DNA of 64,000 nt from Patescibacteria group bacterium (GTDB lineage: Bacteria > Patescibacteriota > Patescibacteriia > Patescibacteriales > GWC2-42-12). A model generated the notes under the pieces. That model searched no databases and had not been told where the DNA came from. It saw only the letters and a list, made by a program, of their open reading frames with translations. The stretch lies in contig JBAZFW010000001.1 of the NCBI GenBank assembly GCA_041653215.1, positions 19,202 to 83,201 of the forward strand, in the 5' to 3' direction. A program made the position numbers and the translations under genes. Within the stretch, counting starts at the first letter, position 1; each line of letters begins with the position of its first letter. Shown here one piece after another: positions 12,532-38,362 of this stretch.

Positions 12532-12888
12532 ATGGCGCATAAAACTTTATCCCAGATTTCAAAAACAGCTCTTTTTGAAATAGTGGAGTATGTGCATAGA
12601 CACCATGGCCTATTGCCATACTACCGGGGTAATCTTGCCCCGACACTTCAAAACGCAAAAATTATCGAAAACTTTACAGTTTACGGGACAACGGGAGACA
12701 AATCTGTCGTAGCTGAATTATCAGAAGATCAATTATTATGTTTAAAGTATTACCGAAGAATTAACAACGGCAATACTCTAAAACGTTTTGCATGGATGAT
12801 GCTTCTGAATATTTTTCACTCAGAAAGAGTCAAAAAAGTTCATGAACAATGCAAAGAGCTTGAAAAAGAATTATCCGGAAAAAAATAA
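12532..12888 (+). CDS. hypothetical protein (SD-bearing, higher GC than neighbours)
   Basis: AAGGAG 6 nt before the ATG; no recognisable motif. Confidence 0.5.
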   Translation: MAHKTLSQISKTALFEIVEYVHRHHGLLPYYRGNLAPTLQNAKIIENFTVYGTTGDKSVVAELSEDQLLCLKYYRRINNGNTLKRFAWMMLLNIFHSERVKKVHEQCKELEKELSGKK

Positions 12889-12964
12889 AGCCGGAATAAC
12901 AGAAAAATCCAAACAAAAAACCCGAGCTAAAAGCTGCGGGTATTTTTATTTAAAAAAATTATTT

Positions 12965-13303
12965 TTAAACAATCTTTGTAATTTCTATTTTAGTGAAAGG
13001 CTGTCTATGACCGACATTCTTTTTATATCTGGTTTTATTTTTAAACTTTACTACGCTGACTTTTTTAGCCTTACCCTGCTCTAAAATTTTACCTTCCACT
13101 ATATCGCCTAAACCAGGTGCGCCTATTTTAATATTTTCTCCTTCGGCAACAAGTAAAGTCTGAAATTTCAAAGCCTGACCGGCTTCACCGTTAATTTTTT
13201 CAATTCTTAAATTTTGTCCTTGAGCAACCTTATATTGTTTGCCACCGGTTTTAATAACTGCTATTTTTACCCCGTTAGATAGTTCATTTTTTTTAATTGC
13301 CAT
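12965..13303 (-). CDS. rplU: 50S ribosomal protein L21 with a ~13-aa N-terminal extension
   Basis: 'IAVIKTGGKQYKVAQGQNLRIEK'. The extension MAIKKNELSNGVK is encoded by the leader module. Confidence 0.9.
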   Translation of the reverse strand: MAIKKNELSNGVKIAVIKTGGKQYKVAQGQNLRIEKINGEAGQALKFQTLLVAEGENIKIGAPGLGDIVEGKILEQGKAKKVSVVKFKNKTRYKKNVGHRQPFTKIEITKIV

Positions 13304-13378
13304 ATGTTTAGATATAATAGCCCCGCTATATAAATATAATAAAAATAAAGTTATCAGCTTTATCTAACGGGGTGAATA
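13266..13378 (-). promoter_or_regulatory. three-part leader module (A / A' / A''), rplU copy
   Basis: mRNA sense: A CACCCCGTTAGATA; A' TATATAGCGGGGCT; ATG; A'' ATCTAACGGGGTA (codons 8-12). A:A'' is a perfect 12-bp complement. Confidence 0.55.
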
Positions 13379-13453
13379 AAAATATTTCTCGTTAAAAATA
13401 AAATCCCCGTTCGGGGGATAAAGCCTGCTAAAATCAGGCAGAATATTAAAATC

Positions 13454-14482
13454 TTAAACTATTTTCTGTTTCCTGTCAAGATAAGCAAAAAACATAACAA
13501 CCAATATCATAATAACTGAAAGCACGCCTAAGGCAAGTACTTTGCCTTTACTTTGCAAAAATAAGGCGGCTAAACCAAAAATAATTGAAACGGCGTAAAA
13601 AAATAAAACTGATCTTTTAACGCCTAAACCCATATTTAATAAGCGAAAATGCAAATGCTTCCTATCAGCAAATTTAAACGGATTTTTACCTTCGGCTAAA
13701 CGTCTAATAATAATCCAAGCTACATCTAAAATCGGTATACCCATAACAAGTAAAGCAATAGCAATTTTTCCGCCTGATATAATTGACAAAACCCCTAAAG
13801 CATAACCTAAGAAAAGCGACCCGCCTTCGCCTAAAAATATTTTTGCCGGATGCCAGTTAAAAAATAAAAAACCAAGACAGGCAGCGGCTAAAATTAAGGC
13901 GGCTAAACCTATATCCGGCTGATAATATTTTTCACTCATAGTAAAGAGAAAAATTACTACCGCGCCAATAGCGGTCATGCCGGTAACTAAACCATCTAAA
14001 CCATCGAGTAATTTTGTTGTATACATCATGCCTAAAAGCCAAAAAGAAATTAATATAGCCGATAAAGCACCTAAATAAAAATAACCGCCGAACGGATTAG
14101 TAATTTTTTCAATTTCCACCCCGCCAGCGATAACGCTTATGATTGCCAAAATAGGCCAGATTATTTGCTGCGCTGGTTTTAATTTATATTTATCATCAAA
14201 AAAACCACCAACCATTAAAAAAATACCGCCGATAAAAAAACCTACCCAATGCCGGGGTTCAAGATTACCGGTTAAAAGTTTATCATGCGTAAAATACAAA
14301 ATAATAAAAAACGCCGCGAAAATAGCTAAGCCGCCAAGTAAAGGCACTTCGCGCTCATGAATTTTTCTATCGCTATCTGGTTTATCCGTAATTTTAAGCC
14401 GCGTGGCCAAATAAATCACCAACCGAGCAAAGATTATGGATATAAATAAAGTAACTACAAAAATTTGCGAATAATATGACAT
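13454..14482 (-). CDS. MraY/WecA/TagO-family polyprenyl-phosphate sugar-1-phosphate transferase
   Basis: ~10 TM segments; 'FFDDKYKLKP', 'NLLDGLDGL'-like 'KLLDGLDGLVTG', 'NWHPAKIFLGEGGS'. Confidence 0.8.
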   Translation of the reverse strand: MSYYSQIFVVTLFISIIFARLVIYLATRLKITDKPDSDRKIHEREVPLLGGLAIFAAFFIILYFTHDKLLTGNLEPRHWVGFFIGGIFLMVGGFFDDKYKLKPAQQIIWPILAIISVIAGGVEIEKITNPFGGYFYLGALSAILISFWLLGMMYTTKLLDGLDGLVTGMTAIGAVVIFLFTMSEKYYQPDIGLAALILAAACLGFLFFNWHPAKIFLGEGGSLFLGYALGVLSIISGGKIAIALLVMGIPILDVAWIIIRRLAEGKNPFKFADRKHLHFRLLNMGLGVKRSVLFFYAVSIIFGLAALFLQSKGKVLALGVLSVIMILVVMFFAYLDRKQKIV

Positions 14483-36938: not shown

Positions 36939-37472
36939 TTATTTTTTTAATTTATAAACTATAACTTTTACCGGCTCTATAATCTTCCCATTTAATTTAT
37001 AGCCAGCCTTAATTTCTTTAGCTACTAAACCATCTAATTTTTCGTCTTCCGTTTCTTCATTGCTTAACGCATCCATTAAATTATGATCAAATTTTTTATC
37101 TTTAACCTTTATTTCTTCAACGCCAATTTTTTCTAAAACATCTTTGAATTGTTTAACTACATGTTTTACTCCGGTTAACCATTCGTCAGCCGACTCAGCA
37201 TTATGATGCGCAATAGCCATTTTTAAATGATCATATACCGGCAAAATTTCTCTTAACATCTGCTCGTTAGCATAAACCGCGAATTCCATTTTTTCTTTAG
37301 CCGTCTGCTTTAATAAATTTTGATAATCAGCTAAAGCACGTTTATATTTATCCTTAAAACTTTTTTCATCATCTAAAGTCTTTTCATCTTTTGAAATTTC
37401 CGAAATTTCATCTTCAATTTTTTCTTCATTCTCTTTATTTTTTTCTTCACTCACCCCATTAGAAGTTTGCAT
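36939..37472 (-). CDS. grpE: nucleotide exchange factor GrpE
   Basis: 'YKRALADYQN', 'LPVYDHL', C-terminal beta domain 'GYKLNGKIIEPVKVIV'. Confidence 0.92.
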   Translation of the reverse strand: MQTSNGVSEEKNKENEEKIEDEISEISKDEKTLDDEKSFKDKYKRALADYQNLLKQTAKEKMEFAVYANEQMLREILPVYDHLKMAIAHHNAESADEWLTGVKHVVKQFKDVLEKIGVEEIKVKDKKFDHNLMDALSNEETEDEKLDGLVAKEIKAGYKLNGKIIEPVKVIVYKLKK

Positions 37473-37539
37473 ATTAATTGTTTTATTTATGAATACCCCA
37501 TTTAAGTCCAGTTTCGCTAGGACTTCTAACGGGGTAAAT
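37452..37539 (-). promoter_or_regulatory. three-part leader module, grpE copy
   Basis: mRNA sense: ATTTACCCCGTTAGAAGTCC-tagcgaaact-GGACTTAAATGGGGT-24 nt-ATG CAA ACTTCTAATGGGGTG. Confidence 0.55.
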
Positions 37540-37543
37540 AATA

Positions 37544-38248
37544 TTATTTCTCCATCAATATATTATTAATAAATTTAACTAAAGCTAAATTTTTTTCATA
37601 ATCCATTCGCATCGGACCTAAAATTCCGAATAAACCGACATTATTATGAAGTTTATATTTAATTAAAATCGTACCGCAAAAATCCCCAAAAGGATTATCG
37701 GCGCCAAGAAAAATTTGCGGACCGGCTTCAAGCTTATTGTAAATACTATCAATTATTTCATCCACCCGATCAATAATTTGCGAAATGTCGTAAATTAATT
37801 GAGTCTCGTTAAATTCCGGCTGGGATAATAAATTTGAAATGCCGGTATAATATAAATTATTGCGGTGAAAAGCCCAAAAAACCGCGTTGCCGGAAACCTT
37901 AGCCAACTCTTTAGCCGTTTGCTTAAAACTTAATTCGTCTTTATTTTTTAATAATTTAGTAAAACTTTTAGTTTCTAAAGCGCCTAATTTTTTTTCAACT
38001 AAGTTTTTGATATACAAATTATAGGCTTTCTCGGTTGGGATGCGTCCGGCTGAAGTGTGCGGCTGCGCAATATAGCCGGCTTCTTCAAGATCAGCCATTT
38101 CATTTCTAACCGTAGCCGAAGAAATATTTAATTTATATTTATCAACTAAAACTTCTGACCCTACAGGAGCGCCAGTTTTTATATGTTCTTTAACGATGGT
38201 ATTTAAAATTAAAGCTTTTCTTTCATCCACCCCATTAGAAGTTTTCAT
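37544..38248 (-). CDS. hrcA: heat-inducible repressor HrcA (short, 234 aa)
   Basis: wHTH 'GAPVGSEVLVDKY..ISSATVRNEMADLEEAGYIAQPHTSAGRIPT'; CIRCE lies directly upstream. Confidence 0.88.
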   Translation of the reverse strand: MKTSNGVDERKALILNTIVKEHIKTGAPVGSEVLVDKYKLNISSATVRNEMADLEEAGYIAQPHTSAGRIPTEKAYNLYIKNLVEKKLGALETKSFTKLLKNKDELSFKQTAKELAKVSGNAVFWAFHRNNLYYTGISNLLSQPEFNETQLIYDISQIIDRVDEIIDSIYNKLEAGPQIFLGADNPFGDFCGTILIKYKLHNNVGLFGILGPMRMDYEKNLALVKFINNILMEK

Positions 38249-38314
38249 AAATTTTAGTTATTATCAACCCCATTTAGTAGTTTCTTTTTCCCTAGAAACT
38301 TCTAACGGGGTAAA
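38228..38314 (-). promoter_or_regulatory. three-part leader module, hrcA copy
   Basis: mRNA sense: ATTTACCCCGTTAGAAGTTTC-tagggaaaaa-GAAACTACTAAATGGGGT-21 nt-ATG AAA ACTTCTAATGGGGTG. Confidence 0.55.
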
Positions 38315-38323
38315 TATATTATC

Positions 38324-38362
38324 ATTATATAACATTTAGCACTCCTGTCAAGAGAGTGCTAA
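38324..38362 (-). promoter_or_regulatory. CIRCE operator overlapping a sigma70-type promoter
   Basis: TTAGCACTC-N9-GAGTGCTAA is perfect at 38336-38362. On the minus strand, TTGACA sits in the spacer, then 16 nt, then TATAAT (38324-38329). Confidence 0.9.

What the first reader, a model, noticed from the sequence alone, without database searches (positions are those of the whole stretch)
13266..13378. Diverged copy of the leader module at rplU shows compensatory change and gives L21 a 13-aa N-terminal extension
In this copy A = CACCCCGTTAGATA and A'' = ATCTAACGGGGTA. The distal part of the helix is GAT/ATC, where the other copies have GAAGT/ACTTC, so both strands changed together and A:A'' is a perfect 12-bp duplex. 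A' (TATATAGCGGGGCT) still pairs with A at about 11 bp. A'' lies at codons 8-12 (ELSNGV). It precedes 'AVIKTGG', where from general knowledge bacterial L21 normally starts (M-x-AVIxTGG). The SNGV peptide therefore recurs in a fourth unrelated protein, and the co-change of the two strands argues for selection on pairing.
Basis: partly seen in the sequence, partly recalled or inferred. Interest (0 to 1): 0.62.

Follow-up and report, generated by a model that had tools for sequence, protein, structure and literature searches.

The report
Tiny mobile element replaced rplU start
The "leader" in front of the ribosomal protein L21 gene is an old copy of a tiny jumping DNA element that landed in the gene's start codon; the gene now starts at an ATG inside the element, so the matching arms are the element's inverted ends, with no evidence that they act as an L21 control switch.

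Summary
The sequences are as described, on the minus strand. A (13373..13361) and A'' (13281..13269) form a perfect 13-bp duplex. A'' covers codons 8-12 (LSNGV) of a 112-aa L21.

It matches no Rfam family, including L21_leader. It is a 105-nt non-coding member of a family of palindrome-ended mobile elements found in many bacterial phyla.

- **Ends:** 14-nt inverted ends, ACCCCGTTAGA plus three positions that vary but stay complementary.
- **Flanks:** T-xy-[element]-xy-A, which looks like a target-site duplication.
- **Coding relatives:** about 280-bp elements with the same ends each enclose an ~85-aa GIY-YIG nuclease gene.
- **Empty and filled sites:** relatives show ...aaaatATGAAAATAGCA versus ...aaaatATGA[element]GAAAATAGCA. 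Most homologues start MKIAVIKTGG.
- **Window lineage:** the displaced ATG was lost and the junction GTG became GTA. L21 must therefore start at the ATG inside the element. The net gain is 11 residues, with Val replacing Met.

The GATA/TATC arm variant is common across the family, so it is not an rplU-specific compensatory change. In orthologues the helix decays (L127, L129), or arm A is absent (L125), while the extension persists. There is no G·U strand bias, and the helix is not predicted to hide the start codon.

The parts
13269..13373 (-). Whole non-coding mobile element (105 nt, ACCCC...GGGGT) inserted in the rplU start codon
   Evidence: Searches give the ends. Searches show empty (L135, L136) versus filled (L133, L131) orthologous sites.
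13361..13374 (-). Arm A, the left terminal inverted repeat (C)ACCCCGTTAGATA
   Evidence: The family core ACCCCGTTAGA is shown.
13319..13332 (-). A', an internal degenerate third half-site TATATAGCGGGGCT. In orthologues it reads TAAYGGG.
13301..13303 (-). ATG inside the element, the only canonical (ATG/GTG/TTG) in-frame start left for L21 between the element interior and the conserved AVIKTGG
   Evidence: This ATG and the open frame are kept in all 11 filled orthologues.
13269..13281 (-). Arm A'', the right terminal inverted repeat TATCTAACGGGGT, translated as (L)SNGV
13268..13270 (-). GTA codon, the former start position. ATG became GTG at the insertion junction, and GTG later became GTA in this lineage.
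   Evidence: GTG in L125, L131 and L133; GTA in the window, L121, L123, L129, L130, L132 and L134.
12965..13303 (-). rplU (L21), 112 aa. The ancestral protein corresponds to residues 13-112, with Met in place of Val12.
13403..13419 (-). Terminator-like hairpin of the upstream glycosyltransferase gene, just before the element
37453..37535 (-). Sister element (83 nt, GAAGT/ACTTC arms) at a gene start read as grpE from its position after hrcA and its N-terminal sequence (no domain search run)
38229..38311 (-). Sister element (83 nt) at a gene start read as hrcA from its N-terminal motif (no domain search run), downstream of a CIRCE-like element and promoter
60287..60366 (-). Sister element (80 nt) at the start of a gene read as a cysteine desulfurase from its N-terminal motif (no domain search run)

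Best explanation
The feature is a fixed, non-autonomous copy (13373..13269, minus strand) of a family of very small mobile DNA elements. The family has 14-nt terminal inverted repeats: ACCCCGTTAGA plus three variable but complementary bases.

Shown:
- In an ancestor of a Patescibacteria clade, the element inserted into the TGAA that overlaps the rplU start (ATG AAA).
- The old ATG was pushed about 105 nt upstream.
- The junction became GGG GTG AAA.
- In the window's lineage the displaced ATG was later lost (ATGA to ATTC), and the junction GTG mutated to GTA.

Inferred from the sequence:
- Translation of L21 has to begin at the ATG inside the element. It then reads out through the right arm as LSNGV and joins Lys2 of the ancestral protein. 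The net gain is 11 residues.
- A and A'' are complementary because they are the two ends of the element.
- That complementarity, including the covarying positions 12-14, is kept by what the element needs for its own spread. A likely reading is recognition of a hairpin or cruciform by the ~85-aa GIY-YIG nuclease carried by the ~280-bp members with the same ends.
- The complementarity is not kept by any role in rplU control.
For: **Insertion.** The empty site L135 (gggaatgacaaaaatATGAAAATAGCAGTT) and the filled site L133 (gggaatgacaaaaatATGA[ACCCCGTTAGAAATT...AATTTCTAACGGGGT]GAAAATAGCAGTA) share identical flanks. About 100 of the 120 listed L21 homologues start at or within a residue of MKIAVIKTGG. 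Only the closest relatives carry M..KKNE(I/L)SNGV.

**Family.** The pattern ACCCCRTTAGA-N55-85-TCTAAYGGGGT hits at least 120 stretches in genome contigs from many phyla.
- Flanks: T at -3 in 111/122 and A at +3 in 115/122. The two nucleotides just outside are a direct repeat in 83/122 (shuffle mean 17, maximum 29).
- Arms: positions 12, 13 and 14 pair in 112, 107 and 91 of 122 elements. Shuffles give 55, 64 and 43. Pairing is at chance from position 15.

**Coding members.** The same ends 240-270 nt apart give at least 120 metagenome stretches. Of 122 matches, 93 hold an ORF of at least 60 aa, and 87 of these carry the family's YLK motif at 78-100 aa. The four tested match Pfam GIY-YIG at E = 1e-15 to 1e-17. 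They show the same flank rule and arm covariation.

**Start codon.**
- GTA sits at the old start position in the window.
- The ATG and the open frame are kept in all filled orthologues, and length differences are whole codons.

**No need for the helix.**
- L125 lacks arms A and A' entirely.
- L127 has both arms degraded without compensation.
- L129 has GGGG changed to GAGG.
- On the sense strand, G·U versus A·C mismatches are 8 versus 6.
- Predicted accessibility around the rplU ATG is 0.70 with arm A and 0.72 without it.
- No Rfam match.
Against: - The window copy itself has no direct-repeat flanks (TTC...AAA). Its status as an insertion rests on orthologues.
- Within the orthologous series, pair 12 swaps A:U to U:A (5 versus 4 sequences), with one mismatched form in L130. 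L121 changes G:C to G·U. Both are what a selected helix would show.
- In most orthologues the 11-nt cores of both arms are better conserved than the element interior.
- The three GAAGT copies have identical arms but diverged interiors.
- The concatenated tree is too poorly resolved to order these changes.
- No transcript data exist, so it is unknown whether arm A is in the mRNA.
- That the GIY-YIG protein moves the elements is inferred from co-occurrence only.
Confidence: 0.8

Rival explanations
1. Exapted cis-regulatory RNA. The insertion was mobile DNA in origin, but the A:A'' helix, with A' as an alternative partner, is now kept by selection because it tunes translation or stability of the rplU mRNA. 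The same would hold for the hrcA, grpE and cysteine desulfurase mRNAs.
For: - The A:A'' helix is the MFE structure in all four copies (z = -2.6 to -5.5).
- Pair 12 swaps A:U to U:A among orthologues, and L121 has a G·U replacement.
- The arms are more conserved than the interior.
- At hrcA, a near-consensus TTGACA-N16-TATAAT lies upstream of arm A. A transcript starting there would include A (read by eye).
Against: - Arm A is absent in L125, and both arms are degraded in L127, with rplU intact.
- The same arms and the same covariation occur in intergenic copies and in GIY-YIG-coding elements across phyla.
- There is no G·U over A·C bias on the sense strand.
- The rplU start region is predicted to be equally open with or without A.
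- By the number of pairs changed on both sides, covariation among orthologues is within the shuffle range (180/500). By cells it is 12/500, a measure the tool warns is inflated by relatedness.
Confidence: 0.13
2. The paired change arose by a DNA-level copying process without selection on pairing. Candidates are gene conversion or re-invasion from other GATA-type copies, recombination between strains carrying AAT-type and GATA-type elements at this site, or quasi-palindrome template switching. Each can rewrite both arms together. This refines the main explanation rather than opposing it.
For: - The TTC...AAA flanks together with GATA/TATC arms, as at rplU, form the largest flank class of the GIY-YIG elements (20 elements).
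- Flank and arm states do not follow the protein tree: L123 pairs with L125, and L132 with L133.
- L130 combines an AAT-like left arm with a GATA-like right arm, as a recombinant would.
Against: - The tree is weakly supported.
- A single pair swap can equally be two point mutations.
Confidence: 0.3
3. The shared SNGV N-terminus is a functional peptide tag (for sorting, processing or degradation) added to L21 and the three other proteins.
For: The same frame is read in four unrelated proteins, and the extension is kept open in all orthologues.
Against: - The frame is fixed by the insertion geometry (A|TGAA gives GGG GTG AAx).
- The peptide varies freely among orthologues: LFNGV, VSNEV, LSNPT, or a shorter MVNKISNGV.
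- Elsewhere the same arm is read in other frames. The GIY-YIG ORFs read it as ..LTG, and the pilin leader insertions read it as SLTG.
Confidence: 0.03
4. A, A' and A'' are operator sites for a DNA-binding regulator that controls these genes.
For: Each module holds three copies of one 11-14-nt motif close to a start codon.
Against: - The motif sits at the ends of insertions that have target-site duplications and empty sites.
- It is found in every kind of context in many phyla.
- It encloses its own nuclease gene in the long members.
Confidence: 0.03

Closest known systems
Bacterial MITEs (miniature inverted-repeat transposable elements, e.g. Correia/CREE of Neisseria, Nezha, Chunjie)
   Same: - It is short, non-coding and multi-copy.
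- It has terminal inverted repeats and short direct repeats of the target.
- Empty sites exist in relatives.
- Copies lie at gene boundaries and can alter gene starts.
   Different: - The ends are only 14 nt. Eleven of them are the same across many phyla in the copies found here, though the search pattern itself fixed those eleven.
- The only coding relatives found carry an ~85-aa GIY-YIG nuclease in about 280 bp, with no DDE transposase.
- The target is TNNA, often the TGAA of ATG-AAx. The junction then regenerates a GTG at the old start position.
Rickettsia palindromic elements (RPEs)
   Same: They are palindrome-ended insertions that are tolerated inside or at the ends of essential genes and are translated as extra peptide.
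   Different: - No sequence relation was tested or is expected, and the host range is different.
- In my sample most copies are intergenic or at gene boundaries. Only 10 of 124 are read through in frame.
REPIN/RAYT systems
   Same: They are hairpin-forming repeats with covarying stems, linked to a small dedicated enzyme gene flanked by the same repeats.
   Different: - The enzyme here is GIY-YIG (Pfam PF01541; nearest solved structure UPF0213 BH0048). It is not a Y1 HUH transposase.
- The flanks show a duplication-like direct repeat.
Rfam L21_leader (RF00559) and other ribosomal-protein leaders
   Same: The position is the same, immediately upstream of and overlapping the start of rplU, and the region folds stably.
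   Different: - There is no match, even in a listing at E <= 10.
- The region is absent from most homologues of the same clade.
- There is no evidence that L21 binds it.

Membership tests
Rfam L21_leader / any Rfam family | cmscan match at or above the gathering score | tested here: not met
   (gathering threshold, whole window) found only two tRNAs. One search (E <= 10, 12900-13500) found no L21_leader, only sub-threshold chance hits.
MITE-like non-autonomous mobile element | Terminal inverted repeats shared by many copies | tested here: met
   14-nt inverted ends, four copies in the window and at least 120 stretches elsewhere.
MITE-like non-autonomous mobile element | Target-site duplication | tested here: met
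   Across the family, 83/122 have a 2-nt direct repeat inside T..A. Orthologues L131 and L133 have TGA|...|GAA. The window copy itself (TTC...AAA) has lost it.
MITE-like non-autonomous mobile element | Empty site in related genomes | tested here: met
   L135 and L136 are empty, while L131 and L133 are filled at the same nucleotide.
MITE-like non-autonomous mobile element | A coding partner with the same ends that supplies the mobilising enzyme | tested here: inconclusive
   About 280-bp elements with the same ends carry a GIY-YIG gene. Activity was not shown. None lies in the window, and the genome could not be searched.
Cis-regulatory mRNA leader (ribosomal-protein autoregulation or RNA switch) | Structure retained, with compensatory changes, in orthologous leaders | tested here: inconclusive
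   92.9% of cells are paired and one pair swaps A:U to U:A. However, the arms decay in L127 and L129, and arm A is absent in L125.
Cis-regulatory mRNA leader (ribosomal-protein autoregulation or RNA switch) | Both arms lie in the transcript, and the structure affects the start region | not testable with these tools
   No RNA runs hold the stretch. Folding predicts no change in start-site accessibility.
REPIN/RAYT | Associated Y1 (HUH) RAYT transposase | tested here: not met
   The enclosed ORF is GIY-YIG.
Rickettsia palindromic elements | Mostly in-frame insertions inside ORFs | tested here: not met
   (stop-to-stop ORF classes): no long ORF at the element 51, start 37, start+end 15, end 11, read-through 10, out of 124.
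IS1380/piggyBac-like elements (resemblance recalled from memory: CCC... ends, 4-bp T..A target) | DDE transposase flanked by the same ends | not tested
   Long-range end pairs in L006, L009 and L096 enclosed no transposase by eye; no domain search was run. No systematic search was possible.

The most novel reading that the evidence does not exclude
The ~265-290-bp elements consist of two 14-nt inverted ends around a single ~85-aa GIY-YIG nuclease gene. On this reading they are autonomous transposable elements, among the smallest known, and use an enzyme class not known to act as a bacterial transposase.

Their non-coding derivatives target TNNA, often the TGAA of ATG-AAx start codons. The junction regenerates GTG, and some copies carry their own ATG. 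That would let them settle in essential genes such as rplU across many phyla and permanently rewrite protein N-termini.
Probability: 0.4. Interest if true: 0.85.

Novelty: new variant of a known kind. Interest (0 to 1): 0.55.

Why it matters
- **Avoiding a false call.** What looks like a covarying regulatory leader in front of a ribosomal protein gene is the footprint of a mobile element. This is a concrete example of how inverted transposon ends can mimic RNA covariation.
- **Evolution of an essential gene.** An essential, highly expressed gene had its start codon replaced by an ATG supplied by the element. The resulting 11-residue extension of L21 has been inherited across a clade of Patescibacteria.
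- **The element family.** The same ends occur in many phyla, and the only coding members are about 280 bp long with a tiny GIY-YIG nuclease. I found no description of the family in the searchable literature. If the nuclease moves the elements, this would be a new type of very small transposon. That can be tested with simple biochemistry.

Tried and rejected
- **Rfam.** Searches at gathering score and at E <= 10 found nothing relevant.
- **Whole-genome census.** Copy number, and whether this genome has a GIY-YIG member, remain unknown. None lies in the 64-kb window.
- **Classical transposase.** I looked between long-range pairs of ends in L006, L009 and L096. They held only a secreted protein, pilin-like genes and a response-regulator-like ORF, judged by eye without a domain search.
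- **RNA-level signature.** G·U versus A·C mismatches on the sense strand of the downstream gene were 8 versus 6, so there is no bias.
- **Ordering the arm changes.** A concatenated GT4 + L21 + RecR tree had backbone support of only 21-46%, which is unusable for this purpose.
- **Transcript evidence.** Only DNA metagenome runs hold the stretch.
- **Literature.** Searches for the end sequence and for GIY-YIG with inverted repeats, MITE or Patescibacteria gave nothing relevant.
- **Phage carriage.** There were no matches in viral contigs for either size class.
- **Promoter scan.** No sigma-70-like site was found between the upstream terminator and the ATG. I therefore dropped the idea of a promoter inside the element as unsupported.
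It said that copies mostly sit in frame inside essential genes. My sample does not bear this out.

Full report
**1. Observation**

The gene and all parts of the module lie on the minus strand.

- Arm A, (C)ACCCCGTTAGATA, is at 13374..13361.
- A', TATATAGCGGGGCT, is at 13332..13319.
- The ATG is at 13303..13301.
- Arm A'', TATCTAACGGGGT, is at 13281..13269.

A and A'' form a perfect 13-bp duplex, and this helix is the minimum-free-energy fold (-26.9 kcal/mol, z = -2.55). By hand pairing, A' pairs with A over 11 positions, including one G·U, with one internal mismatch. A'' covers codons 8-12 of MAIKKNELSNGVKIAVIKTGG.

Three other copies in the window have ACCCCGTTAGAAGT ... ATG nnn ACT TCT AAT GGG GTG. 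They lie at 37535..37453 (read as grpE), 38311..38229 (read as hrcA) and 60366..60287 (read as a cysteine desulfurase). I named these three genes from their N-terminal sequences and gene order only; no domain search was run on them. Compared with them, the rplU copy has T:A instead of A:T at arm position 12 and A:T instead of G:C at position 13.

**2. Not a known RNA**

cmscan finds only two tRNAs in the window at gathering score. Even at E <= 10 nothing relevant appears on 12900-13500, and L21_leader is not listed.

**3. The arms belong to a widespread family of small elements**

The hosts include many Patescibacteria lineages, Omnitrophota, Deltaproteobacteria, Planctomycetota and Nitrospirota.

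In about 120 distinct elements of 77-107 nt:

- **Flanks.** The base three positions outside each end is almost fixed: T on the left in 111/122 and A on the right in 115/122.
- **Direct repeat.** The two bases between that position and the element are a direct repeat in 83/122. Shuffles give a mean of 17 and a maximum of 29 in 2000. The layout is T-xy-[ACCCC...GGGGT]-xy-A, which is the signature of a target-site duplication at TNNA.
- **Arms.** Beyond the 11 nt fixed by my pattern, positions 12, 13 and 14 vary but stay complementary (112, 107 and 91 of 122, against 55, 64 and 43 in shuffles). From position 15 onward pairing is at chance.
- **The rplU state.** T:A at position 12 occurs in 14/122.

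So the inverted repeat is exactly 14 nt.

**4. Coding members**

- 93 of 122 matches hold an ORF of at least 60 aa, and 87 of these carry the family's YLK motif at 78-100 aa. These ORFs run about 84-88 aa.
- The ORF starts 10-37 nt after the left end and reads out through the right arm as ...LTG.
- The four tested match Pfam GIY-YIG at E = 1e-15 to 1e-17. The nearest solved structure is UPF0213 BH0048, PDB 1zg2.
- These elements obey the same flank rule and show the same covariation at positions 12-13: 109/113 and 102/113, against 37 and 74 in shuffles.
- When oriented by the ORF, the largest flank class is TTC...AAA (20 elements). Most of these have GATA/TATC arms, exactly the state of the window's rplU copy.

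Neither size class occurs in the viral contig collection. I found nothing on this family in the held literature.

**5. The rplU copy is an insertion into the start codon**

About 100 of the 120 best L21 homologues start at or within a residue of MKIAVIKTGG and are 100-103 aa long. Only the closest relatives (71-93% identity) carry M..KKNE(I/L)SNGV followed by KIAVIKTGG.

I fetched 12 orthologous loci, which share the gene order glycosyltransferase, rplU, recR. They give a clean pair of empty and filled sites:

- L135 (empty): ...gggaatgacaaaaatATGAAAATAGCAGTT
- L133 (filled): ...gggaatgacaaaaatATGA[ACCCCGTTAGAAATT...AATTTCTAACGGGGT]GAAAATAGCAGTA

The target was the TGAA of ATG-AAA, and GA is duplicated. 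The old ATG stays on the left flank in L131 and L133. The junction reads GGG GTG AAA.

This geometry explains why the right arm is always read as S-N-G-V when the element lands in ATG-AAx.

In the window's group (window, L121, L123, L127, L129, L130, L132, L134) the left flank is ...tttttATTC and the junction codon is GTA. GTA is not a start codon. The only canonical in-frame start between the element interior and the conserved AVIKTGG is the ATG at 13303, inside the element.

That ATG and the open frame are kept in all 11 filled orthologues, and their length differences are whole codons. The extension is thus 11 added residues plus Val in place of Met.

Across the family, 17 small elements have ATGA|ACCCC on one flank. 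Of these, 14 have an ORF of at least 100 codons in the junction-GTG frame. The 17 split as follows:

| How the gene can start | Elements (of 17) |
|---|---|
| In-frame ATG only inside the element | 6 |
| Old ATG in frame and open through the element (MNPVR...SNGV) | 4 |
| No upstream in-frame ATG (six have the junction GTG; L019 has GTA and a downstream ATG) | 7 |

**6. Does the co-change show selection on an rplU helix?**

Evidence for:

- In the alignment of ten orthologous leaders, the 14-bp helix is paired in 92.9% of cells.
- Pair 12 is U:A in five sequences, A:U in four and mismatched in one (L130).
- L121 replaces G:C with G·U.
- The arm cores are better conserved than the interior.

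Evidence against:

- L125 has lost arms A and A' altogether. Its intergenic spacer is 59 nt, yet it keeps the extension and a perfect A''.
- L127 has both arms degraded (CACCTTG... and ...CCAACCCAACA) with no compensation.
- L129 has GGGG changed to GAGG. The window and L121 have lost pair 14.
- The number of pairs changed on both sides (2) is within the shuffle range, with 180 of 500 shuffles as high.
- Arm and flank states do not follow the protein tree, which is weak. L130 looks like a recombinant of the AAT-type and GATA-type forms.
- Across the family, G·U and A·C mismatches on the sense strand of the downstream gene are equally frequent, 8 versus 6. RNA-level pairing would favour G·U.
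- Folding predicts the region around the rplU ATG to be equally open with arm A (0.70) or without it (0.72), because A'' lies 22 nt or more downstream of the ATG.

Taken together, the complementarity is a property of the element's ends. It is maintained at the level of the element family, and perhaps refreshed by conversion from other copies. At this fixed copy it decays or persists without visible consequence for rplU.

**7. What remains open**

- Whether arm A is transcribed with rplU. There are no RNA data, and the consensus scan finds no promoter between the upstream terminator and the ATG.
- Whether this genome holds a GIY-YIG member.
- Why a large share of elements have TTC...AAA or TTT...GAA flanks instead of a direct repeat.
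- Whether the nuclease really moves the elements.

**8. Verdict**

The interpretation as a diverged regulatory leader under selection for pairing is only partly supported.

The feature is an old, fixed, non-coding member of an apparently undescribed family of tiny palindrome-ended mobile elements. It replaced the rplU start codon and gave L21 an inherited 11-residue extension.

As an event this is a known kind: a MITE insertion altering a gene start. The family and its GIY-YIG partner are unusual.

Noticed in passing
window 38335-38362 (minus strand): A CIRCE-like inverted repeat (ttagcactc-N9-gagtgctaa) holds a TTGACA-N16-TATAAT promoter and lies just upstream of arm A of the copy at the gene read as hrcA. 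A transcript starting there would include the whole element.
   Followed up: no
L009 3025-3106 and 6120-6201: Two 82-nt elements with near-identical interiors sit in frame in the leader peptides of two pilin-like genes, directly before the G|FTLIEV processing motif. Here the right arm is read as SLTG. One of the two ORFs carries the element-encoded peptide twice.
   Followed up: partly
L21 homologues P0010 and P0032: These have a different N-terminal extension in front of KIAVIKTGG (MSAKGESALGG / MNNNMSAKGGSAFGG). This may be a second, unrelated insertion at the same start codon.
   Followed up: no
L133, L135 and L136, about 20-50 nt upstream of the rplU ATG: A small GC-rich hairpin (attcccgcctgcgcgggaat) lies upstream of rplU in several relatives, with an expanded version in L136. 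It may be another small palindromic repeat family.
   Followed up: no
Loci from L137 upward (GIY-YIG-carrying elements): About a third of the elements have TTC...AAA or TTT...GAA flanks instead of a 2-nt direct repeat. The TTC...AAA class goes with GATA/TATC arms. The cause is unknown; donor-flank co-conversion or a second insertion mode are possibilities.
   Followed up: partly
L135 and L136 versus L129 and L130 in the tree: The empty-site genomes do not fall outside the filled ones, but support is only 21-46%. This could mean precise excision, repeated insertion at the same TGAA, or simply an unresolved tree.
   Followed up: partly
window 12532-12888 (+): A 118-aa ORF lies between recR and rplU. 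Relatives L121 and L122 hold a 118-aa ORF, and L127 a 116-aa ORF, at the same position with no Pfam hit on record. Function unknown.
   Followed up: no
L034 6013-6092; L061 1959-1991; L094 2934-3082: Some loci hold mini-versions (a 31-33-nt bare hairpin of the two arms) and nested or tandem copies. The A-A'-A'' layout may therefore be one left end with two right ends.
   Followed up: no
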